Shown here piece after piece: positions 739 through 35,728 of a DNA stretch of 64,000 nt. The notes beneath the pieces were generated by a model. That model was not told the DNA's origin, searched no databases, and saw nothing but the letters and a program-made list of their open reading frames with translations. Position 1 is the first letter of the stretch. Every line of letters begins with the position of its first letter. A program made the translations under genes and the position numbers. The stretch is from the NCBI GenBank assembly GCA_001785445.1, contig MFTV01000010.1, positions 19,235 to 83,234 of the forward strand, written 5' to 3'. Origin of the DNA: Candidatus Nomurabacteria bacterium RIFCSPHIGHO2_02_40_30. GTDB lineage: Bacteria; Patescibacteriota; Minisyncoccia; Phycocordibacterales; UBA9973.

Positions 739-830
739 AAAATCAAACTTTTTTCGGTACGGATTTTTCGAAGCTTGAAAAATCCTGAAGTTTTCGGCTC
801 GTCAGCCTCAAAACCCCTTCAAAAGTTTAT
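739..830 (+). repeat. RPE-like dispersed repeat, copy 1 (after rpsI)
   Basis: Contains hairpin ggatttttcGAAGCTTGaaaaatcc and ...ctgaagttttcggctcgtcagcctcaaaacccct.... About 85 nt are shared with 30541-30625 and with 34150-34240 in reverse complement. Confidence 0.7.
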
Positions 831-865
831 TTTAGAATTTTTTTATTTTATGCTAGTATGTTCAT

Positions 866-1471
866 ATGAATGATGAAGAAGAAATACAAAATAAATCCCT
901 CGATGCTACTCGGGATGATTCTGTTGAATCAGATACTACGGAAGTAGAGGAATTTGAATACAATGACGACGGCGAGGAAGATTTAAAGAAAACTCTGAAA
1001 AAGCTGCGAGCTGATTTAAAATCTTGCCAAAAGGAAAAGGAAGAATATCTGACCGGCTGGCAGAAAGAGCGGGCAGAGTTTGCTAATTATAGAAAAGGCG
1101 AAGATGACAGAAAGACGATGTTTTCGGAATCAATGCGTGAGCATATACTTTCGCGCTTTTTGACTGTTATAGACAGCTTCGATATGGCTTTCGCCAATAA
1201 GCAGGCTTGGGAGAAAGTTGACGAAAATTGGCGCAAGGGTGTGGAGTATATCCATTCTCAAATGAATACTATTTTTGAAGATTATGGGGTCAAGCAAGTA
1301 GGCACGGTAGGAGAAGCTTTTGATCCAAGTATTCATCAGTCTATAGAAGTAGTAGAAACGGACAAAAAAGAACTCGACCACACAGTTTCAGATGTTATTC
1401 AAAAAGGCTACAAGCTGGGCGAACGTGTTATGCGTCCAGCTCGAGTGAATATATACGAATATAAGGAATAA
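866..1471 (+). CDS. grpE: Nucleotide exchange factor GrpE
   Basis: Acidic N-terminus followed by a coiled coil, then a GrpE core: ...FANYRKGEDDRK...LTVIDSFDMAF...AFDPSIHQSIEVVETD...GYKLGERVMRPARV. Confidence 0.85.
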   Translation: MNDEEEIQNKSLDATRDDSVESDTTEVEEFEYNDDGEEDLKKTLKKLRADLKSCQKEKEEYLTGWQKERAEFANYRKGEDDRKTMFSESMREHILSRFLTVIDSFDMAFANKQAWEKVDENWRKGVEYIHSQMNTIFEDYGVKQVGTVGEAFDPSIHQSIEVVETDKKELDHTVSDVIQKGYKLGERVMRPARVNIYEYKE

Positions 1472-1502
1472 TATCTATTCTAATATTCTATAGAATTATA
1501 GA

Positions 1503-3158
1503 ATGAAAACAGAAACCAAAAACTGCGCAGACTGTCAAAATAAATTCATAATAGGTGAAGGAGATTTAAAATTATACGAACAAGTAGGGTTGAAGATTTC
1601 TCGCAAGTGTTTCGACTGCCGGACAAAACAGCATTTTATATTTTCTGTCTTCGGCAAATTTCGAAAAGGAGTTTCGGATTTATCTGGTGAGAGCTTAATA
1701 ACAGTTTTCCCAAATAAATCAAGATATCCAGTATATAAATCACATGAATGGTGGAGTGATGCTTGGGATCCGATGACCTACGGACAAGATTACGATCCAA
1801 ATCGCTCGTTTTTCGACCAACTCAAACAACTCCAAGAAAAGGTTCCGCGACCTCATCAAATAGGCCAAAATAACACTAATTGCGATTGGTGTGATGACGC
1901 TTGGAACTGTAAAAATTGCTATCTTTCTCGTTCCATGGATAAGTGTGAAAACTTGAGTTATGCCTATCGGGTGCTTGATAGCAAAGACTCGTTCGATATA
2001 ACTTACAGTTTCAACTTACAAAATTCTTACGACTGTCTTTTTTGCCATGATTCTTTTAATTTAAATTTTTCCGAAAACTCTCGGGATTGCATAGATTCTT
2101 ATTTTCTTTTCGATTGCCGCAATTGTCAAAATTGTTTCATGAGCTACAATTTACGCAACAAGCAATATTGCATTCGTAATAAACAATATTCTAAAGAAGA
2201 ATATAAACAAGAACTCAAAAAAATCAGATTAGATTCACATAAAAATCTAGAAACTCTAAAAAGTGAATTTGAAGACATATTAAAAAAAGAGGCTGTCCAT
2301 AGGGAAAATTTCAATGTCCGAACCAGTAGTTCAGTAGGCAATTATATGACTGATTGCGATAAATGCGTAAATGTTTTCTCTTGGGAAGAATCACAAAATT
2401 GCCGCAATTGCTTGCGAGGTCTTCGCGCAAAGGACTGTATCGATCAAAGTTTTTCGTGGAATACCGAACTATCAGGCAACAATGGAGTCGTAGACGGAGG
2501 ATATCAAATAAAGTACTCCGGCGGATCTTCGACCGGTAGATTCTGTGAATATGTTGATTTGTGCAAAGAGGTTGAGTATTGTTTCGGCTGTGTTGGCCTT
2601 CGCAAAAAGAAATACTGCATTTTAAATAAACAGTACAACAAAGAAGAATATGAAAAATTAAAAGCGCAAATTATTACCAGCATGGAAACGCGAGGCGAGT
2701 ATGGAGACTTTTTTCCTTATTCCATGGGAACCGGCTATTACAATTTATCCAATGGTATAATATATTTCCCCGATACAACCAAAGAAGAAGTTTTAAGAAA
2801 AGGCGGTTATTGGTTAGAAGAAGATCTTACGCAAACTGACGGCATACCATCTTCCAAACTTCCAGATAGTATATTAGATACCTCTCCGGAAATTTCCTCT
2901 CAAGCGTTGATTTGTCCTGAAACACACTATCGATTCAATATTGCAGTTGCAGAATATGAATTTCATAAAAGAAAAGGTTTTGCATTACCCCGCACTCATT
3001 TTGACCAAAGAATCTTAAATCGGATGCGAAAAATGGTTATTAAAAGTTATCCTTATACGTGCATTTACTGCCGAAAAGAGATAAGTGCTTATTATCCGCC
3101 GGAGTGGGAATATAAGAAAATAGCCTGCGAAGAATGTTACAAGCAAAACATAGCCTAA
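1503..3158 (+). CDS. Cysteine-rich multi-zinc-ribbon protein, paralog 1 of 5 (function unknown)
   Basis: 551 aa. N-terminal CxxC..CxxC ribbon, conserved W-W-S-D-x-W-D-P-x-x-Y-G-x-x-Y-D motif, and central Cys/Asn-rich repeats (DCRNCQNCF..NLRNKQYCIxNKQYxKEEY occurs twice). C-terminal CxxC...CxxC. Overall architecture is shared with ORFs at 3184, 4929, 15673 and 38008. Confidence 0.8.
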   Translation: MKTETKNCADCQNKFIIGEGDLKLYEQVGLKISRKCFDCRTKQHFIFSVFGKFRKGVSDLSGESLITVFPNKSRYPVYKSHEWWSDAWDPMTYGQDYDPNRSFFDQLKQLQEKVPRPHQIGQNNTNCDWCDDAWNCKNCYLSRSMDKCENLSYAYRVLDSKDSFDITYSFNLQNSYDCLFCHDSFNLNFSENSRDCIDSYFLFDCRNCQNCFMSYNLRNKQYCIRNKQYSKEEYKQELKKIRLDSHKNLETLKSEFEDILKKEAVHRENFNVRTSSSVGNYMTDCDKCVNVFSWEESQNCRNCLRGLRAKDCIDQSFSWNTELSGNNGVVDGGYQIKYSGGSSTGRFCEYVDLCKEVEYCFGCVGLRKKKYCILNKQYNKEEYEKLKAQIITSMETRGEYGDFFPYSMGTGYYNLSNGIIYFPDTTKEEVLRKGGYWLEEDLTQTDGIPSSKLPDSILDTSPEISSQALICPETHYRFNIAVAEYEFHKRKGFALPRTHFDQRILNRMRKMVIKSYPYTCIYCRKEISAYYPPEWEYKKIACEECYKQNIA

Positions 3159-3183
3159 TACACATTTACGCTATAGCGTATAT

Positions 3184-4872
3184 ATGCAAATGAACCAAGA
3201 AACAAAAAATTGTCAGAATTGTAAAAAAGACTTCACCATAGAGTCGGAGGATTTTAATTTTTACGAAAAGATAAAAGTTCCGCCACCGACAAGGTGTTTT
3301 GAGTGCCGACAACAGAGGCGCTATGCGTGGAGAAATGAACGGACACTATATAGGAGAAATTGTGATTTGTGTAAAAAAAGCACGGTGACGATTTATTCTC
3401 CAAACAAGCCGTACAAAGTTTACTGCAATGAATGCTGGTGGGGCGACGGCTGGGATGCTTCTTCCTATGGGCGAGATTTTGATTTTACTAGGCCATTCTT
3501 CGAGCAATTTGCAGAACTACAGCACGAAGTGCCCCGCATGGCGCTCCTCAATAAAAATAGTGTAAATTCCGACTATACCAACCATTCCGGTGACAACAAA
3601 AATATTTACCTTTCTTTTTCTACGTGGGGGTCTGAAGATGTGATGTATAGTACTTGGGTTTTTTATTCCCGTGACTGCATGGATTCTAGTTTTATTTATG
3701 AAAAAGGTGAACGATTATACGAAATTATTGATTCTCGCACATCCTATCAATGTCAATACGGGCTTTTCTTGAAAGACTGTTCATCTTGTTACTACTGCTA
3801 TGACTGCCGAGGGTGCAACAACTGCTTTATGTCCAGCAACTTGCGAAACAAAAGTTATGTCTTCAAAAATAAACAATATACGAGAGTTGAATATTTGAAA
3901 AAACTAAAGGAATACGATTTATCTTCTCACCTTGTTCGTGAAGGATTAAATAAAGAGTGGAAAGACATGATGCAAAAAGATGCAATTCATCGATATGTGA
4001 TAAGTGAGAGGAATGTGAATTCTACTGGGTCTTTAATTTTTGACTGCAAAAATGTGAAAGATTCTTTTGAAGTTAATAAAGGTGAAGATTCTAAATATCT
4101 GTATTCTACTATCGACCCCAAAAATTGTATGGATTTATATCATGTGGGGCTAAATCTAGAACTGTGTTATGAATTACAGGGTTGTACTCGCACATCCAAT
4201 TGCCAATTCTGCCATCTTTGTTATGACAACATGAACGCAGTGTACTGCGATACTTGCCAAAACAGCCAGAATCTATTCGGCTGTGTCTCAGTGAAAAAGG
4301 GCGAGTATATGATTTTTAATAAAAAGTACTCTAAAGAAGAATATTTGACACTAAAAGAAAAGATTATCGAACATATGAAAAAGACAGGCAGAGAGGAAGG
4401 TGAGTATGGAGAATTTTTCCCACCAAGTATCGCGCCTGTGTATTACAATGAAACACAGGGGAATTTATATATGCCTATGACTAAAGATGAAGTCTTAGCA
4501 AAAGGCTGGCATTGGGAGGACAATGTTCCGAGGACTTTCGGCAAGGAGACAATTAAGAGCGGAGCCATTCCAGACAAAATTGAAGATGTGTCGGACAGCT
4601 ATTTAAGTGAAATTTTTATTTGTATTGATTGTTCTAAAAATTACAATATAACCCAAAACGAGCTTCTTTTTTACCGCAAAGAAATTCTTCCACTCCCTAG
4701 GAAGTGTCCGAATTGTCGCTATAAAAGAAGATTTGATTTACGTCCACCGAGAAAGTTATGGCATAGACAGTGCATGAAAGAGGAGTGTCCAAATGAATTT
4801 GAAACTACTTATGCCCCCGAACGACCTGAAAAAGTGTATTGCGAAAGCTGCTACAACAAAGAAGTTTATTAG
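3184..4872 (+). CDS. Cysteine-rich multi-zinc-ribbon protein, paralog 2 of 5
   Basis: N-terminus QETKNCQNCKKDFTIESEDFNFYEKIKVPPPTRCFECRQQRR and the WWGDGWDASSYGRDFDFTRPFFEQF motif. C-terminus CPNEFETTYAPERPEKVYCESCY has C-x2-C-x17-C-x2-C spacing. Directly tandem to paralogs 1 and 3. Confidence 0.85.
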   Translation: MQMNQETKNCQNCKKDFTIESEDFNFYEKIKVPPPTRCFECRQQRRYAWRNERTLYRRNCDLCKKSTVTIYSPNKPYKVYCNECWWGDGWDASSYGRDFDFTRPFFEQFAELQHEVPRMALLNKNSVNSDYTNHSGDNKNIYLSFSTWGSEDVMYSTWVFYSRDCMDSSFIYEKGERLYEIIDSRTSYQCQYGLFLKDCSSCYYCYDCRGCNNCFMSSNLRNKSYVFKNKQYTRVEYLKKLKEYDLSSHLVREGLNKEWKDMMQKDAIHRYVISERNVNSTGSLIFDCKNVKDSFEVNKGEDSKYLYSTIDPKNCMDLYHVGLNLELCYELQGCTRTSNCQFCHLCYDNMNAVYCDTCQNSQNLFGCVSVKKGEYMIFNKKYSKEEYLTLKEKIIEHMKKTGREEGEYGEFFPPSIAPVYYNETQGNLYMPMTKDEVLAKGWHWEDNVPRTFGKETIKSGAIPDKIEDVSDSYLSEIFICIDCSKNYNITQNELLFYRKEILPLPRKCPNCRYKRRFDLRPPRKLWHRQCMKEECPNEFETTYAPERPEKVYCESCYNKEVY

Positions 4873-4928
4873 TAAACAGCACCAGCTACCATGTACTAGT
4901 ACATAGTAACAATAAATTGTCATTATAT

Positions 4929-6620
4929 ATGCAGAGTGAAACAAAAAATTGCCAAAACTGTAAAGGTGATTTCGTCATCGAACCGGATGATTTTGGGTTT
5001 TATGAACAGATGAAAGTGCCCCCACCAGTATGGTGTCCGCAGTGCAGGCTACTTCGCAGAATGAATTGGTATAGTTATAGAATTCTGTATAAAAGAAAAT
5101 GTGATTTTACCGGTGAGAATATTATTACAATCTATCATCCGGATTTGCCTTACAAAGTTTATAAACAAGATATTTGGTGGAGTGACAAGTGGGACCCAAA
5201 GAGTTATGGCCGGGAGTATGATTTTTCGCGGCCTTTTTTCGAGCAGTTTAAAGAGTTACTAGATGAGGTGCCAAAGGCGGCTCTGCATACAGAATATACT
5301 ACTATGATAAATAGTGAATATTGTAATGCTGCAAGTTACTTGAAAAATAGCTACCTTTGTTTTAAGCACATTACAGGGGAGGATTCTGCCTACACCAACG
5401 TTGTTTCAAATACAAAAGATTCTCTGGATGTAGCTTATTCTTTAGATCCTGAACTTTGCTATGAAATAGTGGACTGCCGTAAATGCTTCCAGGTATTTTT
5501 CTCACAGGATTGTGAAAATTGTCAGAATATTTATTTCTCACGAGATTTAATGAATTGTGGGGATTGTTTTGGCTGTACTTCACTTCGCAATAAAAATTAT
5601 TGCATTTTCAATCAGCAATACACCAGAGAAGAATATTACAAGAAACTTTCGACTTTTGATTTGGGTTCAGTAAAAAATTTACAAGATTTTAGAAAGAAAG
5701 CTTACGAACTTTCTCTGCGTTCTCCCCGAAGGGCATTTCAAGGCAGAAACAATACGAATGTCTCCGGAGACTATGTGTATAATTCAAGAAATGCCAAAAA
5801 TGTCTATTTTATATCCGACTCTGAAAATATAAGGTATACCCAGTTGTTTATAAAAGGAGGAGTACACAATTGTTATGACTTTACAGCTTTTGGTTCTGCC
5901 AGTGAATGGGTTTATGAGGCTACATGGACTGGTCTTAATACTTCCAATGTTAAATTCAGTGTCTGGAATTATCGCAATCACGATACGGAGTATACTTTTG
6001 GTTGTCATGGCAGTGAATACTTGTTTGGCTGTGTCAGTCTGACTAAAGCGTCATATTGTATTTTTAATAAACAATACACGAAAGAAGAATATTTCCCACT
6101 AGTTGAAAAAATTAAAAAACAAATGAATCAGATGCCTTTTGTAGATAGAAGGGGGCTGGAACACAAATATGGCACGCAAATTCCTATTGATCTTTGTCCG
6201 TGGGCATATAACGAGTCCACAGCTTATGAATTTTTTCCAATCACAAAAGAGGAAGCTATCGCTAAAGGTTTTACTTGGCGTGACTCTGACCCGCGGGAAT
6301 ATCTGGACGCTTCTATTACAGTGCCGGAACATATCAAAGATGTAACTGATGAGATTTTGAAAGCGATTTTGAAATGTGTTGCTTGTGGCAAAAATTATCA
6401 AATTATATCCAAAGAATTAGTATTTTTACGCCGTTTTAATTTTCCTATACCGAGCCATTGCCCACTATGTCGAGACCGAGCTCGTATTAAACAATTAAAT
6501 CCTATGGAGACATATGACCGCACGTGTGATAAATGCAGCATATCAATTACTACATCCTATGCCCCAGACCGTCCCGAAATAGTTTACTGCGAAAAATGCT
6601 ATCAGCAGGAAGTTTACTAG
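4929..6620 (+). CDS. Cysteine-rich multi-zinc-ribbon protein, paralog 3 of 5
   Basis: Start moved to ATG 4929 (MQSETKNCQNCKGDF...), which removes the overlap with paralog 2. Carries the same conserved motifs as the family. C-terminus CDKCSISITTSYAPDRPEIVYCEKCYQQEVY. Confidence 0.85.
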   Translation: MQSETKNCQNCKGDFVIEPDDFGFYEQMKVPPPVWCPQCRLLRRMNWYSYRILYKRKCDFTGENIITIYHPDLPYKVYKQDIWWSDKWDPKSYGREYDFSRPFFEQFKELLDEVPKAALHTEYTTMINSEYCNAASYLKNSYLCFKHITGEDSAYTNVVSNTKDSLDVAYSLDPELCYEIVDCRKCFQVFFSQDCENCQNIYFSRDLMNCGDCFGCTSLRNKNYCIFNQQYTREEYYKKLSTFDLGSVKNLQDFRKKAYELSLRSPRRAFQGRNNTNVSGDYVYNSRNAKNVYFISDSENIRYTQLFIKGGVHNCYDFTAFGSASEWVYEATWTGLNTSNVKFSVWNYRNHDTEYTFGCHGSEYLFGCVSLTKASYCIFNKQYTKEEYFPLVEKIKKQMNQMPFVDRRGLEHKYGTQIPIDLCPWAYNESTAYEFFPITKEEAIAKGFTWRDSDPREYLDASITVPEHIKDVTDEILKAILKCVACGKNYQIISKELVFLRRFNFPIPSHCPLCRDRARIKQLNPMETYDRTCDKCSISITTSYAPDRPEIVYCEKCYQQEVY

Positions 6621-6638
6621 AAACTTTTTAAAAAGTTT

Positions 6639-7154
6639 CTATCTCCCGAAAGCGTCGAAGAGAAATTTTTTAGTTTCTTCGTCTATGAATTGGGTGGTGA
6701 TTATCATCATCTCTGTCGTCAGACCTAAATCTTTTTTTATATTCGTGAATAGATGCTCGTACGGGTATGGGGAAATCCAAGCGGAATTTTTCAGGCAGAC
6801 GAAACCGGCTTTTTTCAGAAGATAACGCAAACTTTCGCGTTCGCTTTTTCTGTCTTCCGGCAAGTCGAGCAAAATTATTCTCCAGAGTCCGTCCCAAGAA
6901 ATATTTACCAGTGTCGTATCATTATCTAATTTTAAAGTATTCACTTTTTTCTTACCTTCTTTAGTGAGTCGTGCATATTCATTTTGTGGAGAAGAAATAT
7001 TCTCTATTAACCCAGCATCTCGAAGCCCTTTGAGGGAGCGAGTGATAGCGTATCTATTTTCAACATCTAAATTACGAAATTCAGGTAAAGAAACAGCTGT
7101 TTTTTGTCCTAGAATCTTAAGTATTTTATTTGAATAGTCTTTTTTACTTGACAT
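6639..7154 (-). CDS. Winged-helix transcriptional regulator, PaaX-like family
   Basis: N-terminal wHTH ([15 protein letters not shown]) and C-terminal [45 protein letters not shown], which matches the PaaX-type W.G.WR..DIPE...R..LR..L...GF..LQ.SVW pattern. Divergent from dnaK. Confidence 0.55.
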
Positions 7155-13922: not shown

Positions 13923-15683
13923 ATGAAGATAGAAACCCAAAATTTATCATGGCTAGATATACCAAAGTCTATTTGGTATTTTCTAGAAAAAGATAAAAAG
14001 AAGTCTCTTTTTTATTTTATCGTCATTGTCATAGCATTTTTTTATGATCTCGTTCCCGCATATATTGTAGGTAAAATGGTTGATTTTTTTACTGGCTATA
14101 CACAGGGTCAATCACTTAGTCTTTTTTATTTTTATGTAGTTTTTGTAGGTGTTACTTGGATAGTAGCCTCTCTCATACGCTTAAAAAGCCATAAAGTTTT
14201 AAGTATCGCCAGTAAAAAAGCTCGTACCCGAGCACGTGTTTGGGGATTTGAGCGCTTAACCGAGTTTTCTCTCGGGTGGCATAATAAAGAAAATACAGGA
14301 AACAAATTTCAGCGAATTTTTACTGGAGCAGAAGCTATTGAAAAATGGGTATTAATATTAAGAAGAGATTTGCTTCGGATTATGGCTAACTCTGTCGGGG
14401 TGTTAATATTTTTTTTATTTCTAGACTTTAAATTTATTTCTTTAGTGCTTATATATGCGTTACTTTTTTTGTATGTCGAATTTTCGTTCGGTAAGAAAAT
14501 ACTTAGATTAAGTAATGATTTTAATCTATCTAATCAATCGGCAGGAGGGGTTTACATAGAAAGCGCAAACAATATGCTTGCTGTCAAAGCATTAGGTGCG
14601 AAAGATGGCTTGGTTTCTCGTGTTAAAGATAAAGAAACTATTTCCCGTGATCTTTCGATACAAAAAACAACTATTAGTAATTTCAAGTGGCAACTGTTGC
14701 AGTTTATAAACGGCTTTTCAATAAGTATTTTTCTTTTAATTGCTGGTTTTGCCAGTATTTCTAATGCTATAACAATTGGTATGGTTTTAGTAATATTCAC
14801 TTACTTCTCTAAACTGCAAACTTCATTAAGTGAAATAAGTAACTTACACATGGATGTAATAGATCTTCGTTCAGATCTTGGCAACATGATGCCAATATTT
14901 AAGGAGACAGAATTTATTAAGACAGGCAATGAAAGTTTTCCGAAAGATTGGCAAAAAGTTGAAATTAAAAATGGAGTTATGGATTATGGCTCTGGGCAAA
15001 TGGGGTTAAAAGATTTTAATTTAGTGTTAAAAAGGAATACCAAAACCGGTATTGCCGGGTTATCTGGCTCCGGCAAGTCTACGTTGGCAAAAATTATTTT
15101 AGGCTTATACGGCTTGAAAACAGGGACTTTTAAAGTAGGCAATAAAAATTATTATTCAATTGCGCACAACGAAACCTTGAGCAATATTAGTGTGGTTCTG
15201 CAAGAGACAGAACTTTTTAATCTTTCTTTGCGGGACAACATCACTATGATGCGCGTGGAAGACAAAGAACTTCTGGATATAGCAGTAGAAATTTCCAATC
15301 TTGATGAAGTTATAGGCCGTTTACCGGAGGGGCTCGATGCTATGATAGGTGAAAAAGGGTACATGCTCTCCGGCGGGGAGAGGCAACGTCTCGGCATTGC
15401 CCGTGCGATTTATAAAAATGCGCCAATTATAATTCTCGACGAAGCCACGTCTTCGCTTGATTCGGAGACGGAAGGCAAAATAATGGAGAAACTTTTAGGA
15501 GAGTACGGTAAAGACAAAACTTTCTTAATCATTGCGCACCGCTTGGGTACGCTTAAATATACTGACAACATTGCCGTGATGGAAAGAGGGAAAGTAGTGG
15601 AAGAAGGAAGTTATGATAAGTTAATGAACAACCAGAGCTCTGTCTTTTATAGAATGAATAAAGAAAAAAAAGATGAAAAATAG
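13923..15683 (+). CDS. ABC transporter, fused permease/ATP-binding protein (exporter type)
   Basis: N-terminal 6-TM domain. Nucleotide-binding domain has Walker A GLSGSGKST, signature LSGGERQRLGIARA, and Walker B IIILDEATSSLD. The 3' end overlaps the next gene by 11 nt. Confidence 0.85.
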   Translation: MKIETQNLSWLDIPKSIWYFLEKDKKKSLFYFIVIVIAFFYDLVPAYIVGKMVDFFTGYTQGQSLSLFYFYVVFVGVTWIVASLIRLKSHKVLSIASKKARTRARVWGFERLTEFSLGWHNKENTGNKFQRIFTGAEAIEKWVLILRRDLLRIMANSVGVLIFFLFLDFKFISLVLIYALLFLYVEFSFGKKILRLSNDFNLSNQSAGGVYIESANNMLAVKALGAKDGLVSRVKDKETISRDLSIQKTTISNFKWQLLQFINGFSISIFLLIAGFASISNAITIGMVLVIFTYFSKLQTSLSEISNLHMDVIDLRSDLGNMMPIFKETEFIKTGNESFPKDWQKVEIKNGVMDYGSGQMGLKDFNLVLKRNTKTGIAGLSGSGKSTLAKIILGLYGLKTGTFKVGNKNYYSIAHNETLSNISVVLQETELFNLSLRDNITMMRVEDKELLDIAVEISNLDEVIGRLPEGLDAMIGEKGYMLSGGERQRLGIARAIYKNAPIIILDEATSSLDSETEGKIMEKLLGEYGKDKTFLIIAHRLGTLKYTDNIAVMERGKVVEEGSYDKLMNNQSSVFYRMNKEKKDEK

Positions 15684-17451
15684 CGAAATAAAAAATTGCC
15701 AAAATTGCAAGAAAGATTTCACCGTTGAGCCGGAGGATTTTAATTTTTATGAAAAAATCAAAGTTCCTCCGCCAACTTTTTGCCCAGAATGCAGGCTGGT
15801 GCGGCGAATGCTGTGGCGTAATGAACGCTCGCTTTTCAAAAGGTCTTGCGCCAAAACGAGCAAACAAATAATCACCATGTTTCATCCGGATGCTAAGGTG
15901 GTGGTATATGACCATGACACATGGTGGAGTGACCAGTGGGAACCGACCGATTATGGAAAAGATTATGATTTTTCTAAACCGTTTTTTGAGCAATTCAAAG
16001 AATTACTTTACCGAACATCATTAGCGAATTTAGGAAATTCCAATAACGTTGGCAGTCCTTACGGCAATCACAATGCCGACTGCAAGTATTGCTATTTATT
16101 ATACGCTTCTTTCAACGTTGAACGAACACATTATTCTTATGGCGCGGTTAGATTGAAAGATTGCATGGATATGTATGTCTGTTTGCATTCCGAATTGTGT
16201 TATAACGATATTGTCAGCACTGATTTGTATAAAACTCATTTTTCTTATGACGCGGACGAGTCTGTTAATTGCTTTTTTCTGAAGTATTCTAAAAATATGC
16301 AAGACAGTATTGGCTGTATAAATTTGAGAAATAAAAGTCATTGCATTTTAAATGTAGAATATTCAAAAGAAGAGTACGAGAAAAGGAAAAAAGAGTTTGA
16401 TTTCGGCAGTTATAAAGTTTTGTTTGAATTTGAAAATTCTTTTAACAGACTTGTCCTTAATGTTCCGTACCGATATGCGCACATCATGAAATCTAAAGAT
16501 GTTACCGGAGACAATATTATAAACTCTAAAAATGTAAAGAATTGTTTTGATATTTATCAAAATGTGGAAGATTCAAAGTATTTAATTCATTGCTTGGACG
16601 CCAAGGACTGTTATGACTTATATGGCGGTGGCGCGGTGGCATCTTTAATGTACGAAGGAGTGGATATTGGAAAAGAATCGTCCAAGCAATTATTTTCCAT
16701 ACTCACTCATACTTGTTTCCAAACTTATTATACCTACATGTGCTATAACTCAAAAAATCTTTTTGGCTGTATCGGCTTGCGGGGGAAGCAGTACTGCATT
16801 TTGAATAAGCAGTATTCCAAAGAAAAATATTTTGAACTATTGCCGAAAATTATTGAGCATATGAATACCATGCCCTATAAAGATAAAAAAGGACTAATTT
16901 ATAAATATGGAGAATTTTTCCCAAGCGAATTATCGCCTTTTGCTTATAACGAGACAATTGCCCAAGAATATTTTACAAAAACTAAAGAAGAAATTGTTAA
17001 AGACGGATATACTTATAGAACTTCACCGGCAAAGGATTATCAAGCGACTATTTTGAACAAAGATTTACCAGATCATATCAAAGATGTTTCTGATTCTATT
17101 CTTAAAGAGGTGATTGCTTGTCCTAACGATGGCAAAGAACTGACTCAATGTACCAAAGCTTATCGTATTATTAAATCCGAGTTAGAATTTCTAAAAAATA
17201 ATAACATTGCTTTGCCGCGCTATTGCCCCAATTGCCGTCACTATAAAAGACTCAAGCAAAGAAATCCATTCAAACTCTGGCAGGCTAAATGTCAGTGCGC
17301 TGGGGCTAACTCTCAAAATAAAAAATACAAAAACACAATAAAACATACTCATGGAACCAAACCTTGTCCGAACGAATTTGAAACAAGCTATGCTCCTGAC
17401 CGACCGGAAATTATTTATTGTGAAAAATGTTACCAGCAGGAAGTTTATTGA
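15673..17451 (+). CDS. Cysteine-rich multi-zinc-ribbon protein, paralog 4 of 5
   Basis: MKNSEIKNCQNCKKDFTVEPEDFNFYEKIKVPPPTFCPECRLVRR..., the WWSDQWEPTDYGKDYDFSKPFFEQF motif, and C-terminus CPNEFETSYAPDRPEIIYCEKCYQQEVY. The ATG sits inside the ABC exporter stop region, which suggests translational coupling. Confidence 0.85.
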   Translation: MKNSEIKNCQNCKKDFTVEPEDFNFYEKIKVPPPTFCPECRLVRRMLWRNERSLFKRSCAKTSKQIITMFHPDAKVVVYDHDTWWSDQWEPTDYGKDYDFSKPFFEQFKELLYRTSLANLGNSNNVGSPYGNHNADCKYCYLLYASFNVERTHYSYGAVRLKDCMDMYVCLHSELCYNDIVSTDLYKTHFSYDADESVNCFFLKYSKNMQDSIGCINLRNKSHCILNVEYSKEEYEKRKKEFDFGSYKVLFEFENSFNRLVLNVPYRYAHIMKSKDVTGDNIINSKNVKNCFDIYQNVEDSKYLIHCLDAKDCYDLYGGGAVASLMYEGVDIGKESSKQLFSILTHTCFQTYYTYMCYNSKNLFGCIGLRGKQYCILNKQYSKEKYFELLPKIIEHMNTMPYKDKKGLIYKYGEFFPSELSPFAYNETIAQEYFTKTKEEIVKDGYTYRTSPAKDYQATILNKDLPDHIKDVSDSILKEVIACPNDGKELTQCTKAYRIIKSELEFLKNNNIALPRYCPNCRHYKRLKQRNPFKLWQAKCQCAGANSQNKKYKNTIKHTHGTKPCPNEFETSYAPDRPEIIYCEKCYQQEVY

Positions 17452-29291: not shown

Positions 29292-29630
29292 ATGCTCTAT
29301 AATATTTCTGGTAAGGTTATCAAAGGGGATGGATATGGTAGAAAAATTGGTTTTCCTACCGTAAATTTAGCAAGAGACTTCAGCAAAGAGAAAGAATTTC
29401 CACCAGATGGAGTATATGCTGGAACTGCATTACTGGATAGTGTAGAATACAGAGCAGGAATTGTAATAGGTCCACTGGATAAAGTTGAAGCACATTTAAT
29501 AGGCTACGCCGGAGATGCTTACGGGAAAGAAGTAACTTTGCAAATAAAAAAATTTATAAGAGATTATAAAAAATTTAACACAGAGCAGGAATTGATTATT
29601 CAAATAAAAAAAGATATGGAATTATGTTAA
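29292..29630 (+). CDS. Riboflavin kinase domain protein (stand-alone RibF C-terminal domain)
   Basis: GKVIKGDGYGRKIGFPTVNL...PDGVYAG...GIVIGP...EAHLIGYAGDAYGKEVTLQIKKFIRDYKKF...QIKKD matches the riboflavin kinase fold motifs. Confidence 0.6.
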   Translation: MLYNISGKVIKGDGYGRKIGFPTVNLARDFSKEKEFPPDGVYAGTALLDSVEYRAGIVIGPLDKVEAHLIGYAGDAYGKEVTLQIKKFIRDYKKFNTEQELIIQIKKDMELC

Positions 29631-30523
29631 AAAATTACTCGGGCCCTGTTTTTATTATCGTCGCTGCATTTCTTTGGGCATTTGACGGGCTGATTCGTCA
29701 GCATTTGTATTCTCTGCCGCCCATAACCATAATATTCTTCGAGCATCTCTTTGGGCTTATAATACTGTTTCCTTTTGTTTATAAATATGTTTTAAAAACA
29801 CAGCTTACTAAACGGGATTGGTGGCTTTTGGTTTTGATATCAGTTTTAAGCGGGCTTTTCGGGACTTTGTGGTTTACCACAGCCCTTGGCAAAGTACATT
29901 TTATTTCTATATCAGTAGTATTTCTTTTGCAAAAACTTCAGCCTATATTTGCCATCACTACTGCCAGAATCTTTTTGAAAGAAAAGTTGGATAGTAAATA
30001 CATAAAGTGGGCGGTGTTGGCCATAGTTTCTGCATATTTTGTCACTTTCCCAAATGGAGTTGTGAATCTAGAGACTGGCGAGGGGACTATTATCGCTGCC
30101 TTGTATGCCCTCGGCGCAGCTTTTGCTTGGGGTTCATCCACCACATTTTCTAAAATGCTTTTAACCAAAGTGGATGCCAAGGTCAGCACTTTCTTCAGAT
30201 TTTTTATTACGGTACTTATAGCTTTTCCAATATTGATTTTATTTGGTCATGGAGGAAGCCTGCTCTCGCCAACTACTTCACAATTTGGATTTTTGGCCCT
30301 TATAGCTATCTCCACTGGCATGGTGGCACTACTTATATACTATAAAGGCCTAGCAAAGACTCCAGTGCATATCTCTACCATACTTGAGCTTACTTTCCCA
30401 TTTATCGCTATTTTTCTAGATATGACCATAAACGGCACTTCACTTGCATTTTCACAATGGGTAGGGGCTATCGTCCTTGTCTTTTCTATTTATCAAATCG
30501 CTAGATTGCGAGAACATTCATAA
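29624..30523 (+). CDS. DMT-superfamily (EamA-like) transporter
   Basis: 299 aa with about 10 TM helices arranged as two EamA-like halves. Confidence 0.6.
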   Translation: MLKNYSGPVFIIVAAFLWAFDGLIRQHLYSLPPITIIFFEHLFGLIILFPFVYKYVLKTQLTKRDWWLLVLISVLSGLFGTLWFTTALGKVHFISISVVFLLQKLQPIFAITTARIFLKEKLDSKYIKWAVLAIVSAYFVTFPNGVVNLETGEGTIIAALYALGAAFAWGSSTTFSKMLLTKVDAKVSTFFRFFITVLIAFPILILFGHGGSLLSPTTSQFGFLALIAISTGMVALLIYYKGLAKTPVHISTILELTFPFIAIFLDMTINGTSLAFSQWVGAIVLVFSIYQIARLREHS

Positions 30524-30540
30524 AAAGAAATTAGGAGCAA

Positions 30541-30625
30541 GATTTTTACCGGTACGGATTTTTTGAAGCTTAAAAAATCCTGAAGTTCTCGGCTCGTCAG
30601 CCTCAAAACCCCTCAAAAACCTTCT
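30541..30625 (+). repeat. RPE-like dispersed repeat, copy 2 (after the DMT transporter gene)
   Basis: ggattttttGAAGCTTaaaaaatcc. The stem carries a compensatory c>t / g>a change relative to copy 1. Confidence 0.7.
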
Positions 30626-30765
30626 CCCAATTTCTTTTTAACTTGTATAGCGAAACTCGTCGCAGGCGCACTTTTTAGAAAGCCTTGCGCAGGAAATTAG
30701 AAAATAAAGAAAGTATTCTTTCTGTTATTTTCTTGATTGACGAGCAGTTCGCTAGCAAAGCTTTG

Positions 30766-31617: not shown

Positions 31618-31631
31618 GCTAGAATAGTACC

Positions 31632-31967
31632 ATGGATTTATTAAAGAAAAAATGTGTGCCGTGTGAGGGCAGGGGAATAAAACCTTTTGATAGGGCTGAA
31701 GCGCAAGACTATGTGGATGAGTCTCACGGCTGGACCCTAAGTGAAGATGCAAAGGAAATTTCCAAAGAATATAAGTTCCAAGATTTTATCGGAGCAATAA
31801 ACTTCGTAAATAAAGTAGCCGACATTGCCGAAATGGAAGGCCACCATCCGGACATCCAAGTACACTATAACAAAGTTCTCCTAGAACTCTCTACTCACGC
31901 CATCGGCGGCCTCTCCGAAAATGATTTCATCGTAGCTACCAAAGTGGACGCGCATAATAGGTTTTAG
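31632..31967 (+). CDS. Pterin-4a-carbinolamine dehydratase (PCD/DCoH)
   Basis: W..S....I.KEYKF.DF..A..FVNKVA..AE..GHHPD....YN.V.....TH...GL...D is the PCD signature. Confidence 0.75.
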   Translation: MDLLKKKCVPCEGRGIKPFDRAEAQDYVDESHGWTLSEDAKEISKEYKFQDFIGAINFVNKVADIAEMEGHHPDIQVHYNKVLLELSTHAIGGLSENDFIVATKVDAHNRF

Positions 31968-32545
31968 CTAGGGAACTTGCTTTTGAAGACGAGGTCGGAG
32001 AGGGGCTTTCTGTCGCTTGGATTTTCGCGGGCGCGCAGAGGCTCGGGCAAATCTGCGACATTGCCATGTTTGCCGACGGCTATCATCATCTCAACGGTGT
32101 AGTTTTCTGGGATGCCAAGCTTTTCTTTGGCCAGAGCGTAATCAAAACCTTCCATGCCATGCGCTACGAGGTTCATAGTGGATGCCTGTAAAGCGAAGTT
32201 TTCCCATGCGGCACCGGTGTCGAATGAATGAGTGCGAGACACTGTGCCTTTATAATGTAGGTCATGTGAAATGGTCACAACAAGAGCGCTTGCATTTTTG
32301 CACCAGTCTTGGTTGAAGGGGATTAAGAGTGAAAACAAAACATCAAACTCCGGCGTGCCACGCATAGCATATATGAACCTCCATGGCTGCATGTTGCTAG
32401 CTGAAGGCGCCCAACGCGCAGCCTCAAAGAGGGTCATAAGCTCTTCCTCACTTATACTTTCCCCCGACATTGCTCGTGGCGAATACCTCTCCAAAAATAT
32501 GTCATCTATCTCGTATTCCGTTTTTCTTCCGTTCACAGTTTTCAT
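31964..32545 (-). CDS. Nitroreductase-family protein
   Basis: RYSPRAMSGESISEEELMTLFEAARWAPSASNMQPWRFIY is the nitroreductase N-terminal signature. The roughly 190-aa length fits. Confidence 0.75.
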   Translation of the reverse strand: MKTVNGRKTEYEIDDIFLERYSPRAMSGESISEEELMTLFEAARWAPSASNMQPWRFIYAMRGTPEFDVLFSLLIPFNQDWCKNASALVVTISHDLHYKGTVSRTHSFDTGAAWENFALQASTMNLVAHGMEGFDYALAKEKLGIPENYTVEMMIAVGKHGNVADLPEPLRARENPSDRKPLSDLVFKSKFPS

Positions 32546-33066
32546 CTATTTGTGATATTTTCTGTATTGGGTTTATTTTGATTTAGTTCATTTATTTTAT
32601 TTTGACTTATTAAATTCAGCCAACTAAAAATAATAAGGGTTATTATTGCGAAAGGAAGAGAAGTCAGCACAACATAGGTAGTTATTTTTGCACGAAATCT
32701 ATATTTTTTTATTTTATCATCTGTATCTATTTTTTTATTAAAATCACCATCGTAAGGAAATCCATGTGCTCTTTCTTCGTTTACTAATTGAAAGCTTCTC
32801 TCTGCTATTTTAGCTGTCACAAAGTGTGCTAAAAAATTAAAAGTTATAGGTAGGAATAAAAAACACCAAGAAATTAATAAAAAATAAGAGTGAGTAATAT
32901 AATTTTTTAAATACCCTATAAGACTTATTGTAAGTACAAATGATCCAGTACTTAAAACAAATATTATGTTATTCATTGAACGATAAGCCGTGTTACCTAG
33001 CTCTGTTTGTCGTTCTTGATTTATATCAGAAACCTGTATTAAATGATCTTTTCTTTCTTTATCCAT
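32542..33066 (-). CDS. Hypothetical membrane protein
   Basis: 174 aa with 3-4 TM helices and no recognisable family. Confidence 0.45.
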   Translation of the reverse strand: MDKERKDHLIQVSDINQERQTELGNTAYRSMNNIIFVLSTGSFVLTISLIGYLKNYITHSYFLLISWCFLFLPITFNFLAHFVTAKIAERSFQLVNEERAHGFPYDGDFNKKIDTDDKIKKYRFRAKITTYVVLTSLPFAIITLIIFSWLNLISQNKINELNQNKPNTENITNR

Positions 33067-33088
33067 ATTACATTATTATATACTAAGT

Positions 33089-35728
33089 TTACTCCAAAAA
33101 CCCTTCAATTTTCTTACCGTCTCTTTTGAGCCAAAGGGTGTTGCCTTCGAGGCGTTCGAGGACTTGCTGGATGGCGCGCTTGGCGCCCGGAGCGTCGTGA
33201 GTGGCAAAGAACTCTTTAAATGATTTCAAATGTTTTTCTTCAGCGCTGCCGGAAATAGCTTTTATAAGTCTCGCAAGTGTATGCCCGCCGTCGCCATAAC
33301 GCGAGACGAGAATTTTCCAATTTAATTTAATGCATTTAAGCCAAATGTCACGGCCCTCGGGATTGGCTCCTATGGAGGAGAGGATGCCTACAGTGTCTTG
33401 GGTGCGGACATGTTTCGACATTGCGAATTCGCAAGTAAGCTTTAGAATTTTTGGGTCAGAGAAGTCTCCCAGCACTCCGCCTATTCTATTCTTCTCTTCA
33501 TGTAATGTTTCTTTTTTATATTTTTCAATAAATATTTTATATTCTTTCATGCCACCACTGGATGCGACAACTGAATATACAGCTCCGCGAATGTCCGGAT
33601 TTATTTTTCCAGTTTTAAACATTGCTCTTGCTTTGTTTATTATTCCTGTGTGCCCGGAGCGTCCTAAACGAGAAATACAAAGGGAGCGAAGCAATGTGTC
33701 GGTATGCATTTCATTTTTTCTAGGACTCCATCCCAAGCGTTTCATGGTGGGGGAGAAAAGGTCGAGAATAAGTTTATCCAAATTACTTTTTGTGGGTCGA
33801 AGATGCCGAGCTTGTCGAGGTACTATCAATTGTTCAAGTCGCGCAAGGCCGAGAGCAATTTCAAGCCAAACAGTGTAATTGTCTTCCCCGCCTGCAACAG
33901 CTTTGCCGTAGGCATTGCGGGCAGGATTTTTATATGCAGATAAAAATTCTAATGCATCAGTAGTGGGTATAGTGCCAGCCTCCGAGAGAGCAAAGAGGTC
34001 GCGAATAACGCCGAGCCTGTCGCGAGGTGACAAAATCTTTCTCTCTACTGGCATTTTTAACTTTTCCAACAATTCTTTACTATATGCAGTCCTAAAGAAT
34101 CCCGTCTCTCCAAAGTTTACTTTTAAATAAGAGTTTTCTAAAATAAACTTTTTAAGGGGTTTGGCGAGCGACGGCGAGCCAATTTCAGGATTTTTCAAGC
34201 TTCGAAAAATCCGTACCGGCAAAAAGTTTGATTTTTGAGAACTCTGATACTGCACATTCGATGAATTATGTAAGGGCACTTGCCAGATAGTTTTATCTTT
34301 TGATTTTTTCTTTGAAATAGGGCTAGCGAAAAATCTTTCTTGCGAAAGAGCAAGTTTACCGTTTTTGATTTCAGCTTTGACGACAGGGTAGCCGGGTTTG
34401 CTGGTCCAATTGCGCATCATTTTTGCGACAGGCTTGCCGGAAACTTTTTCAAACGCTTGCCATAGGTGAAGCGTTTCGGTATTTTTATAACTGTGCTTTT
34501 TCAGATAGTGATGCAGGCCGGCTCGGAAATCTTTTTCTCCCAAGTAGCTCGCCAGCATGCGAATGACTGATGCGCCTTTGGCATACGAGACTTCATCAAA
34601 TATTTCTCCTATTTCATCCGGATGATGCACGGGTATCTCTATCGGATGTGTATTTAGTAGAGCATCCAAGTGCAATGCTCTACCGAGGTCGTTGGTAGAG
34701 AATTGTGTCCAAATGTCCCACTTTGGGAAAAGTTTGTCCACGGCGAGGTATTCTATATATGTAGCGAAGCCTTCATTGAGCCATAAGTGTGTCCACCATT
34801 CCATAGTTACAAGGTTGCCGAACCATTGATGGGCGAGCTCGTGGGCTATCACGAGCGCCACCCATTGTTTGTTGGAAACAGAAGAATGGTTTTCATCCAC
34901 CAAGAGCGCGCTTTCGCGATAGGTAACGGCACCCCAGTTCTCCATGGCTCCGGACTGGAAGTCTGGTATAGCTATCATGTCTAAAGTATTCAGAGGATAT
35001 TTTATATCAAAATATTTTTCATAAAATTCCAGAGTTTTCACTGCGCAGTCGAGCGCGAAGCCTGCCTGATGTTTTTTGCCGTGGGTGGTGTAGACGCGCA
35101 CTTGCACTCCAGTCTTTGTTTTCTTTTCAATATATTCGAAATCACCAACAATGAAGGCGAGGAGGTAAGTAGACATCTTGGGTGTAGGGTGGAACCGAAT
35201 GACTTCAAAACCACTTTCATGTTCTTCTACTGACTTTGGCAAGGTATTGGAAATAGCGGTTTTGCCTTTTGGCACTACAAGAGAGACATGGAATACTGCT
35301 TTCTGCGCCGGCTCGTCAAAACAGGGAAAAGCTCTTCGCGCATCGGTGGCTTCGAACTGCGTGGTGGCCATGTGGTGCTCTTTGCCATCTATGTAGTAGC
35401 GACTGCGATAAAATCCACGCATTTTGTCATTCAGTATGCCTTTGAATACTATGGTCAATTTATTTTTTCCGGCAGGAATATTTTCTGGGAAAGTGAAAGT
35501 TGCTGTCTCTGATTTTTCATCATAAGAAATTTTACCCCACATGTCAGACATGTGGGCAGTCTCGATTTCCAGCTCTTTAGAATGGAGAGTTAATGTCTTT
35601 GTCTTTTTTAAAATAGAGAGGGTAATGGTTTCAACTCCTTCAAAAGTGAAATTTTTCAAATCAGGACGTATCTTGAGGTCGTACTCTATCGGTATGACAT
35701 TTTTCGAAAGGCGAACGGTCTGTTTCAT
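33089..35728 (-). CDS. pepN: Aminopeptidase N (M1 family zinc metallopeptidase)
   Basis: GAMEN motif (QSGAMENWG) and zinc site HELAHQWFGNLVTMEWW...LWLNEGFA (HExxH-x18-E). Large C-terminal ERAP1-like helical domain. An internal segment at about 34150-34240 coincides with a dispersed 85-nt repeat. Confidence 0.9.
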   Translation of the reverse strand: MKQTVRLSKNVIPIEYDLKIRPDLKNFTFEGVETITLSILKKTKTLTLHSKELEIETAHMSDMWGKISYDEKSETATFTFPENIPAGKNKLTIVFKGILNDKMRGFYRSRYYIDGKEHHMATTQFEATDARRAFPCFDEPAQKAVFHVSLVVPKGKTAISNTLPKSVEEHESGFEVIRFHPTPKMSTYLLAFIVGDFEYIEKKTKTGVQVRVYTTHGKKHQAGFALDCAVKTLEFYEKYFDIKYPLNTLDMIAIPDFQSGAMENWGAVTYRESALLVDENHSSVSNKQWVALVIAHELAHQWFGNLVTMEWWTHLWLNEGFATYIEYLAVDKLFPKWDIWTQFSTNDLGRALHLDALLNTHPIEIPVHHPDEIGEIFDEVSYAKGASVIRMLASYLGEKDFRAGLHHYLKKHSYKNTETLHLWQAFEKVSGKPVAKMMRNWTSKPGYPVVKAEIKNGKLALSQERFFASPISKKKSKDKTIWQVPLHNSSNVQYQSSQKSNFLPVRIFRSLKNPEIGSPSLAKPLKKFILENSYLKVNFGETGFFRTAYSKELLEKLKMPVERKILSPRDRLGVIRDLFALSEAGTIPTTDALEFLSAYKNPARNAYGKAVAGGEDNYTVWLEIALGLARLEQLIVPRQARHLRPTKSNLDKLILDLFSPTMKRLGWSPRKNEMHTDTLLRSLCISRLGRSGHTGIINKARAMFKTGKINPDIRGAVYSVVASSGGMKEYKIFIEKYKKETLHEEKNRIGGVLGDFSDPKILKLTCEFAMSKHVRTQDTVGILSSIGANPEGRDIWLKCIKLNWKILVSRYGDGGHTLARLIKAISGSAEEKHLKSFKEFFATHDAPGAKRAIQQVLERLEGNTLWLKRDGKKIEGFLE
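34150..34240 (-). repeat. RPE-like dispersed repeat, copy 3, embedded in-frame in pepN
   Basis: Reverse-complement copy. It is translated within pepN as ...FLPVRIFRSLKNPEIGSPSLAKPLKKFILE... The copy 1 frame gives ...FSVRIFRSLKNPEVFGSSASKPLQKFILE. Confidence 0.65.

What the first reader, a model, noticed from the sequence alone, without database searches (positions are those of the whole stretch)
739..34240. Dispersed RPE-like repeat of about 85 nt, with one copy translated in-frame inside aminopeptidase N
- Three copies exist: 739-830 (+), 30541-30625 (+) and 34150-34240 (reverse complement).
- They share a hairpin GGATTTTTC-GAAGCTTG-GAAAAATCC plus a conserved CTGAAGTTxTCGGCTCG...CCTCAAAACCCCT arm.
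- Copy 2 carries a compensatory stem change (C>T paired with G>A), indicating selection for the structure.
- Copies 1 and 2 sit just downstream of genes in terminator position. Copy 3 lies inside the pepN reading frame and encodes ...VRIFRSLKNPEIGSPSLAKPLKKFILE..., the same peptide as the open frame of copy 1.
- pepN remains a single 879-aa ORF.
- This mirrors Rickettsia palindromic elements, which insert in-frame into protein genes. That behaviour would be notable in a CPR-type genome.
Basis: seen in the sequence. Interest (0 to 1): 0.7.

Follow-up and report, generated by a model that had tools for sequence, protein, structure and literature searches.

The report
Dispersed palindromic repeat in CPR bacteria
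A roughly 120-base hairpin-shaped repeat with a highly conserved Y-shaped tip occurs three times in this window and in over a hundred places in related ultra-small (CPR) bacteria, mostly right after genes where terminators sit, and one copy is read through as 46 extra amino acids inside an aminopeptidase.

Summary
The window has exactly three copies, each about 115-120 nt, longer than reported. Each has a 22-28 bp AT-rich outer stem capped by a conserved three-way junction with two hairpins. The organism is Candidatus Nomurabacteria RIFCSPLOWO2_02_40_28.

The same core occurs in more than 116 stretches of Patescibacteria genomes, and the scan was cut short. Covariation is strong in hairpin 2 and in the outer stem. 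It matches no Rfam family, and no phage or plasmid record.

Copies lie mostly at gene 3' ends, often starting at the stop codon. They favour the sense orientation 42:14.

At the rpsI-grpE spacer the element is present in the window and in two distant relatives, with different orientations and hairpin-2 types. It is absent from six closer relatives. One of those carries only an ordinary terminator between the same A- and T-tracts. This points to gain and loss.

Only 2 of 115 copies lie inside long ORFs. Both are at one pepN site that is hypervariable among orthologs.

I read it as an uncatalogued MITE/REP-like palindromic element that fills the terminator niche. It is RPE-like in one gene only. 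How it moves, and whether it acts as RNA, is unresolved.

The parts
729..848 (+). Copy 1, whole palindromic element. It starts at the rpsI stop codon (729-731) and ends in the T-tract ahead of grpE.
   Evidence: fold -33.7 kcal/mol, z -4.5. (R1 107.8 bits); it sits between the A-tract and T-tract where relatives have a GC-rich terminator.
756..817 (+). Copy 1 conserved Y-shaped core (GGTAC ... ACCCC). Hairpin 1 is 761-785 and hairpin 2 is 791-812.
   Evidence: Alignment A4 and pair counts. CM alignment.
30521..30640 (+). Copy 2, whole element. It starts at the stop codon of the EamA transporter gene (30521-30523), in a convergent spacer with prs.
   Evidence: I5 arms 30521-30553 / 30608-30640; -33.9 kcal/mol, z -5.1. 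(91.5 bits).
30551..30612 (+). Copy 2 core. Hairpin 1 is 30556-30580 (the common U:A variant) and hairpin 2 is 30586-30607.
34130..34245 (-). Copy 3, whole element, inside pepN in the sense orientation. The extra coding segment is 34127-34264 (aa 489-534).
   Evidence: -35.7 kcal/mol, z -5.9; 91.1 bits; only 1 of 6 frames is open.
34156..34217 (-). Copy 3 core. Hairpin 1 is 34188-34212 (C:G variant). Hairpin 2 is 34161-34182 (GGCTCGCC/GCTCGCC variant).
33089..35728 (-). pepN, an M1-family aminopeptidase of 879 aa that hosts copy 3.
   Evidence: Peptidase_M1_N, Peptidase_M1, ERAP1_C. (100% to the Nomurabacteria protein). (human puromycin-sensitive aminopeptidase, E about 1e-222).
300..731 (+). 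rpsI (ribosomal protein S9), the gene whose stop codon abuts copy 1.
29624..30523 (+). EamA-family transporter gene whose stop codon abuts copy 2.

Best explanation
These are copies of an uncatalogued family of small, non-coding, palindromic repeat elements. The family is MITE/REP-like, about 115-175 nt, and spread through Paceibacteria-type CPR bacteria.

**Architecture.** Each copy is a long AT-rich stem capped by a conserved three-way junction: GG-UAC-[hairpin 1]-UGAAR-[hairpin 2 with a UC/UC internal loop and a CGUC loop]-ACC-CC.

**Behaviour.** The unit is gained and lost at given sites, so it multiplies or moves as DNA. It settles almost always just after a stop codon. There it is flanked by an A-tract and a T-tract, and it takes the place of the ordinary GC-rich terminator hairpin.

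**The pepN copy.** One lineage sits in a hypervariable loop region of pepN. It persists only in forms that keep the reading frame open, so it is translated as a 46-residue passenger.

**Shown:**
- the repeat family and its covarying structure;
- its gene-end niche and orientation bias;
- presence or absence at orthologous sites;
- the open frame in pepN.

**Inferred:**
- the invariant unpaired bases of the core are the recognition surface for a trans-acting enzyme that acts on the folded strand;
- sense copies terminate or stabilise the upstream transcript.
For: **Family and structure**
- There are 124 pattern hits in 117 stretches, and 116 of the 117 are Patescibacteria MAGs.
- On 114 distinct copies, 94.4% of cells pair against 81.4% in shuffles.
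- 438 cells changed on both sides, against 149 in shuffles.
- The covariation score is 0.340, against at most 0.094 when partners are slid.
- Hairpin-2 pairs switch among GC, CG, UA and AU while the loop and junction bases stay invariant.

**Repeat and mobile behaviour**
- Three copies lie in 64 kb. Copies 1 and 3 share their outer arms (81% over 100 nt).
- One genome has three near-identical copies, including a 19-bp terminal inverted repeat (L007, L015, L027).
- The same terminal repeat flanks palindromes with other insides.
- GC-rich hairpins are nested inside the core in L041, L082, L099 and L044.
- The rpsI-grpE spacer holds the element in the window (sense), L083 (sense, another hairpin-2 type) and L057 (antisense).
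- That spacer lacks the element in six relatives whose GrpE is 77-85% identical.
- The element lies downstream of the EamA gene in L056 but not in L119.

**Terminator niche**
- Of 95 copies with two called neighbours, the contexts are ++ 42, +- 28, -- 14 and -+ 11.
- Sense versus antisense gives p = 2e-4, and convergent versus divergent gives p = 0.009.
- The core starts a median 27-30 nt after the stop codon. In 28 of 61 sense copies the paired arm starts within 5 nt of it.
- L124 has AAGAAAAAA-TCCCTCTTCCAAGAGGGA-TTTTTTT at the position where the window has the element, between the same tracts.

**pepN**
- The insert is absent in about 40 of the top 120 orthologs.
- At least 8 insert types occur elsewhere in pepN orthologs, including the same core reversed.
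- Only 1 of 6 frames is open.
- The common U:A form of hairpin 1 would create a TGA in that frame. The pepN copy carries the rarer C:G form.
Against: - No transposase or other partner gene was found next to copies or in the window. The check was shallow, since only the commonest Pfam families are listed.
- No target-site duplication could be defined.
- The conserved centre with a variable outer stem is the reverse of ordinary MITEs and REPINs.
- The near-identity of unpaired core bases across deep lineages looks more like a selected functional RNA than like selfish DNA.
- In L083 the element lies between two ordinary terminators, so it is not needed there as a terminator.
- Isolated mismatches in the outer stem are A.C (46) rather than G.T (15) on the sense strand. 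Selection on the sense RNA would predict the opposite. These are counts of copies, not of independent events.
- No transcript data were available.
Confidence: 0.6

Rival explanations
1. It is a host-functional structured RNA family, such as a 3'-UTR or terminator module, a small RNA, or a protein-binding platform. Purifying selection maintains it, and the copies are paralogous genes rather than a mobile element. The long stem only needs to pair, so it drifts with compensation.
For: - Unpaired junction and loop bases are invariant, with covarying stems, across Nomura-, Vogel-, Yanofsky- and Yonathbacteria.
- There is a strong gene-end and sense-strand bias.
- In L083 the element lies between two terminators, like a separate unit.
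- No transposase was seen.
- Subfamily B shows conserved internal loops on both sides of a variable helix.
Against: - The same orthologous spacer carries the element in either orientation, or not at all, in related species. A reversed copy gives a different RNA.
- G.U pairs are nearly absent in covarying pairs (3 of about 680 cells). In the outer stem they are rarer than A.C on the sense strand.
- Foreign hairpins are nested inside the core.
- One copy sits inside a coding region.
- It matches no Rfam family.
Confidence: 0.25
2. The core is a self-cleaving ribozyme, or the RNA of a small retro-mobile element that spreads through an RNA intermediate.
For: - It is a three-way junction with invariant junction bases and covarying helices.
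- It shows a sense-orientation bias relative to transcription.
Against: - No hammerhead, twister, pistol, hatchet or other ribozyme model matches, even at E = 10.
- The hammerhead core CUGAUGA...GAAA is not present. The junction reads UGAAR, and the G is often A.
- No reverse transcriptase was seen nearby.
Confidence: 0.05
3. The intergenic copies are fragments of pepN, or the pepN segment is an ordinary conserved part of the protein. On this reading there is no repeat element.
For: - Human puromycin-sensitive aminopeptidase has a native segment of about 34 residues at this position. phmmer lines part of the insert up with it.
- One ortholog (P0003) has the same segment.
Against: - More than 100 intergenic copies next to unrelated genes show RNA-like covariation.
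- Orthologs carry no segment, other segments, or the same core reversed.
- The pepN copy scores 91 bits on a model built from the family, which is almost entirely intergenic copies. The window's own three copies were among the model's 114 training sequences.
Confidence: 0.02

Closest known systems
Rickettsia palindromic elements (RPEs)
   Same: - Both are palindromic repeats of roughly 100-150 nt in a small, AT-rich genome.
- A copy can sit in frame inside a protein gene and be translated as a passenger peptide (PMC10969869; window).
   Different: - RPEs hit many unrelated genes, with 44 in-frame insertions in R. conorii.
- Here 2 of 115 copies are in ORFs, both at one pepN site. The rest follow stop codons.
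- The phylum is different.
- No sequence comparison with RPE consensus sequences was possible.
Bacterial MITEs and intergenic palindromes with effects on transcripts (Neisseria Correia elements, ERIC, pneumococcal BOX/RUP/SPRITE)
   Same: - They are small, non-coding, multi-copy and fold into long hairpins.
- They sit in transcribed spacers at gene ends.
- They can nest into one another.
- SPRITE looks like a terminator, and Correia stems are RNase III substrates.
- Subfamily B here has a 19-bp terminal inverted repeat shared with other palindromes.
   Different: - In MITEs the termini are the conserved part. Here the centre is nearly invariant and the stem varies.
- No target-site duplication and no parent insertion sequence were found.
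REP/REPIN elements mobilised by RAYT (IS200/IS605-type Y1) transposases
   Same: - They are extragenic palindromes at gene 3' ends.
- The structure rather than the sequence of the stems is kept.
- They are mobilised in trans as folded single strands (established knowledge). This is the mechanism I consider most likely here by analogy.
   Different: - REPs are 20-40 nt, GC-rich and carry a GTAG-type head.
- REPINs have conserved arms and a variable spacer.
- No RAYT gene was looked for genome-wide.
Mitochondrial GC clusters and repetitive hairpin elements (yeast var1, sponge RHEs)
   Same: They are hairpin repeats that invade spacers and occasionally coding regions in frame, and they nest (own knowledge; RHE paper PMC2800124 listed).
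   Different: They are organellar, short and GC-rich, with no conserved three-way junction.

Membership tests
Rickettsia palindromic elements | Palindromic repeat of about 100-150 bp present in many copies. | tested here: met
Rickettsia palindromic elements | Frequent in-frame insertion into many unrelated protein genes. | tested here: not met
   2 of 115 copies lie inside long ORFs, both at the same pepN site. Compare 44 genes in R. conorii.
Rickettsia palindromic elements | Sequence relationship to the RPE-1 to RPE-10 consensus sequences; Rickettsia lineage. | not testable with these tools
   No RPE library was available. The host is a Patescibacteria MAG.
MITE | Small, non-coding, multi-copy. 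| tested here: met
MITE | Terminal inverted repeats. | tested here: met
   The whole unit is a palindrome. Subfamily B has a 19-bp repeat, ACTTTGAATTACGAAACTC, which is also found around other insides.
MITE | Target-site duplication. | tested here: inconclusive
   Flanks were inspected. No consistent duplication was seen.
MITE | A parent insertion sequence with the same ends, or a transposase acting in trans. | not tested
   Only neighbours of copies and the window were scanned, and only the commonest families are listed. No paired ends far apart were seen in the loci held.
MITE | Presence or absence at orthologous sites. | tested here: met
   rpsI-grpE spacer: present in the window, L083 and L057; absent in L123-L128. 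pepN site.
REP/REPIN-RAYT | Short GC-rich imperfect palindrome with a conserved GTAG-type head; conserved arms and a variable spacer. | tested here: not met
   The stems are about 30% GC and variable, and the centre is conserved.
REP/REPIN-RAYT | Cognate RAYT gene in the genome. | not tested
   No genome-wide protein census was possible.
Intrinsic (Rho-independent) terminator | Hairpin directly followed by a T-tract at a gene end. | tested here: met
   Copies 1 and 2. Same A- and T-tracts as the terminator of L124. Gene-end bias.
Intrinsic (Rho-independent) terminator | Short GC-rich stem. | tested here: not met
   Median 26-30 pairs at about 30% GC, with a 62-nt branched tip.
Intrinsic (Rho-independent) terminator | Termination of transcription. 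| not testable with these tools
   No transcript data.
Any Rfam 15 family (including hammerhead, twister, tRNA-like, 6S) | Match at the family's gathering score. | tested here: not met
   Only one tRNA was found in the window. At E up to 10 there were only generic long-hairpin miRNA models, far below threshold. ARAGORN finds nothing there.

The most novel reading that the evidence does not exclude
The invariant Y-shaped core may be a functional nucleic-acid module with a dedicated, still unknown partner. It could be a new class of structured RNA (protein-binding or catalytic). Alternatively it could be the recognition site of a new mobilisation system specific to folded single strands. On this reading it is shared across Paceibacteria-type CPR bacteria, can stand in for intrinsic terminators, and is tolerated inside a protein.
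Probability: 0.3. Interest if true: 0.8.

Novelty: new variant of a known kind. Interest (0 to 1): 0.6.

Why it matters
CPR bacteria have tiny genomes with very little spacer DNA, yet they keep dozens of copies of a 120-nt element whose core is almost unchanged across class-level lineages.

- **If selfish:** it is the first described palindromic mobile repeat family of this radiation. It has an unusual design, a conserved centre with free stems, and a clear niche as a replacement terminator.
- **If functional:** it is a new widespread RNA or DNA structure in organisms that cannot yet be cultured.

Either way it gives several practical handles:
- a covariance model for annotating CPR genomes;
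- a marker for strain-level variation;
- an explanation for length variation in PepN;
- a natural example of a protein tolerating a translated hairpin repeat.

Tried and rejected
- **Rfam:** searched at gathering scores and at E = 10. Nothing relevant was found.
- **tRNA/tmRNA scan:** nothing at the copies.
- **Hammerhead reading of the junction:** rejected by inspection, because CUGAUGA and GAAA are absent.
- **Phage or plasmid origin:** 0 hits in IMG/VR, INPHARED and PLSDB.
- **Core inserted into the loop of a pre-existing terminator hairpin:** not supported. The window copy has no GC-rich stem around it. Copies 1 and 3 share outer arms, so the arms travel with the core.
- **Transposase next to copies or in the window:** none among the families listed, but the listing is shallow.
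- **Autonomous element with the subfamily-B ends:** no widely spaced end pairs in the loci held.
- **Target-site duplication:** not definable.
- **AlphaFold2 model of PepN:** built from 24 sequences and too poor to place the insert (mean pLDDT 64.6; residues 437-548 below 50).
- **Strand of the functional form from G.T versus A.C mismatches:** three ways of counting disagreed. The strictest gives A.C 46 and G.T 15 on the sense strand. I treat this as unresolved.
- **Strain variants of the window's own spacers:** only identical contigs were returned.
- **Literature:** six searches found no description of such an element in CPR.


Full report
**Observation**

A 35-nt core pattern hits exactly three places with no mismatch, and none is expected in 100 shuffles.

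The repeat is longer than reported. On each side of the reported segment lie complementary arms, so each copy is a hairpin of about 115-120 nt:
- 729-848 (+)
- 30521-30640 (+)
- 34130-34245 (-)

Each folds as a 22-28 bp outer stem capped by a three-way junction with two hairpins. The energies are -33.7 to -35.7 kcal/mol, with z-scores of -4.5 to -5.9 against shuffles.

Gene context is as follows:
- Copy 1 starts at the stop codon of rpsI and ends before grpE.
- Copy 2 starts at the stop codon of an EamA transporter gene.
- Copy 3 lies inside a single 879-aa M1 aminopeptidase ORF, in the sense orientation.

The PepN protein is 100% identical to one from Candidatus Nomurabacteria bacterium RIFCSPLOWO2_02_40_28.

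**A large family**

I scanned one genome per species with the hairpin-1 motif, leaving two positions free on each arm. 116 of them come from Patescibacteria MAGs, labelled Nomura-, Vogel-, Yanofsky- and Yonathbacteria, Paceibacterota, Minisyncoccia and 'Saccharibacteria'. The single outsider, Sporosarcina, lacks the rest of the element.

The parts the search did not select for are also conserved:
- GGTAC before hairpin 1;
- TGAA after it;
- the CGTC loop and UC/UC internal loop of hairpin 2;
- ACCCC at the end.

The stems of hairpin 2 and the outer stem change with compensation. Measured on 114 distinct copies:

| Measure | Observed | Control |
|---|---|---|
| Cells that pair | 94.4% | 81.4% in shuffles |
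| Cells changed on both sides | 438 | 149 in shuffles |
| Covariation score | 0.340 | 0.094 or less with slid partners |

The conservation of hairpin 1 is partly a result of how I searched. The covariance model also finds copies with altered hairpin 1, for example GAATTT/AAATTC in L120, and a tail of divergent relatives at 22-36 bits.

The element matches no Rfam family. It has no hit in 2.9 million viral contigs, in deposited phages or in plasmids. Six literature searches found no description of it.

**Where copies sit**

Among 95 copies with called genes on both sides, the contexts were:

| Context (5' gene, 3' gene relative to the element) | Copies |
|---|---|
| ++ (tandem, element sense) | 42 |
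| +- (convergent) | 28 |
| -- (tandem, element antisense) | 14 |
| -+ (divergent) | 11 |

- Thus 88% lie at the 3' end of at least one gene.
- In tandem contexts the sense orientation is favoured 3:1 (p = 2e-4).
- Convergent spacers outnumber divergent ones (p = 0.009).
- The core starts a median of 27-30 nt after the stop codon, which is the length of the arm.
- In 28 of 61 sense copies the paired arm starts within 5 nt of the stop codon.
- Flanking genes are ordinary housekeeping genes, including L7/L12, EF-Tu, RecA, RNase Y, S9 and EamA. No transposase appears among the families listed.

**Gain and loss**

The rpsI-grpE spacer is the clearest case.

*With the element:*
- the window carries it in sense orientation with hairpin-2 type GGCT/AGCC;
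- L083 carries it in sense orientation with type GGCTCGCC;
- L057 carries it in antisense orientation with type CGCG.

*Without the element:* six relatives whose GrpE is closer to the window's (77-85% identity, against 65-68% for L083 and L057) have no element there at E up to 1.

L124 has only a canonical terminator, AAGAAAAAA-TCCCTCTTCCAAGAGGGA-TTTTTTT, followed by the conserved sequence ahead of grpE. In the window the element lies between the same A-tract and T-tract, and the GC-rich hairpin is gone. In L083 that hairpin is still present downstream of the element.

Other signs of repeat behaviour:
- Copies 1 and 3 share their outer arms, 81% over 100 nt.
- One genome has three near-identical copies, arms included.
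- Subfamily B has a 19-bp terminal inverted repeat that also flanks palindromes with quite different insides.
- GC-rich hairpins are nested inside the core in four loci.

I had considered that only the core is mobile and lands in existing terminator loops. The shared arms, and the absence of a GC stem around the window copy, do not support that idea.

**The pepN copy**

Of the top 120 orthologs (68-100% identical):
- about 40 have five residues (TFKKN-like) at this site;
- about 32 have 39-62 residues of at least eight types.

The insert types include the same core forward (P0001, P0003) and the same core reversed (P0007, P0011, P0015, P0073, and locus L066). Several others contain hairpin 2 reversed, and there are short remnants.

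Human puromycin-sensitive aminopeptidase has a native segment of about 34 residues here. The site is therefore a variable part of the small domain between the catalytic and C-terminal domains, and the short forms look like deletions.

Only one of the six frames of the window copy is free of stops. The common U:A form of hairpin 1 would place TGA in that frame. The pepN copy carries the rarer C:G form, so both the frame and the hairpin are kept.

Every insert-bearing ortholog returned by the search was called as a single long protein. Both points argue that the insert is translated rather than removed.

Across 115 copies, only this one gene site is occupied. This is unlike RPEs, which occupy dozens of genes. 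The structure model was too weak to place the insert.

**How it most likely works**

I commit, at about 0.6, to a non-autonomous palindromic repeat that multiplies as DNA and survives where a long hairpin is harmless or useful. Such places are directly after stop codons, between an A-tract and a T-tract. There it can replace the intrinsic terminator and, like other long 3' hairpins, protect the transcript.

The invariant unpaired bases of the Y-shaped core are best explained as the contact surface for a trans-acting protein that reads the folded strand. By analogy with REP/RAYT and IS200/IS605 this would be a single-strand DNA enzyme, but that step is inference only.

Facts that fit pairing at the DNA level:
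- wobble pairs are nearly absent in covarying positions (3 of about 680 cells);
- transitions and transversions are about equally common among stem mismatches;
- the element occurs in both orientations at one site.

Facts that fit an RNA-level role, and that keep the functional-RNA rival at about 0.25:
- the deep conservation of the core;
- the sense-strand bias;
- the L083 arrangement between two terminators.

**Novelty and score**

The general kind is known: small palindromic repeats in spacers, with occasional translated copies. This family appears undescribed and lies in a radiation where none has been reported. Its design is also unusual, with a conserved branched centre and free stems. 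I rate it a new variant of a known kind, with interest 0.6.

Noticed in passing
window 33887-33925 (-), pepN aa 602-614: A second in-frame insert, PARNAYGKAVAGG, is encoded by a GC-rich imperfect hairpin (CCTGCCCGCAA...TTGCAGGCGGG). It is absent from human PSA and from most orthologs. Hairpins with similar ends (CCTGCC...GGGAA) are nested inside the Y-core in L041, L082 and L099, which suggests a second family of small inserting hairpins.
   Followed up: partly
window 33788-33820 (-), pepN aa 637-647: A third lineage-specific insert, PRQARHLRPTK. Similar short inserts occur in P0011 and P0013. PepN orthologs also carry other variable inserts, such as DPRHGGAS.
   Followed up: no
window 40794-40838 and 50030-50074: Two 45-nt palindromes, 96% alike (CAGATAGAGCTTTAGACTCT...). 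Each lies directly at the stop codon of a + strand ORF (39742-40797 and 48313-50025). This is a second repeated terminator-like palindrome family.
   Followed up: no
L125:661-700, L126:644-680, L128:655-690, L123:715-750: In relatives, the last four codons and stop of rpsI are followed at once by their own reverse complement (AGTAAAAGATAA-CTGC-TTATCTTTTACT). This forms a perfect hairpin that includes coding sequence.
   Followed up: partly
L034:201-310, L102:5586-5707, L058:1-150, L061:1419-1562: Palindromic elements that share the terminal repeat TGAATTACGAAAC of subfamily B but have unrelated insides. This indicates a modular set of palindromes in these genomes.
   Followed up: partly
window 1503-3158, 3184-4872, 4839-6620, 15673-17451, 37879-39723: Five paralogous genes of about 550-610 aa with shared blocks and a Cys-rich C-terminus. 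Three of them are in tandem. Their function was not examined.
   Followed up: no
L083 (CAZUCZ010000003.1) and other 'uncultured Candidatus Saccharibacteria' TPA assemblies: The S9 protein of L083 is 76% identical to the window's Nomurabacteria S9, with the same L13-S9-GrpE order. The Saccharibacteria label of these assemblies is therefore probably generic.
   Followed up: no
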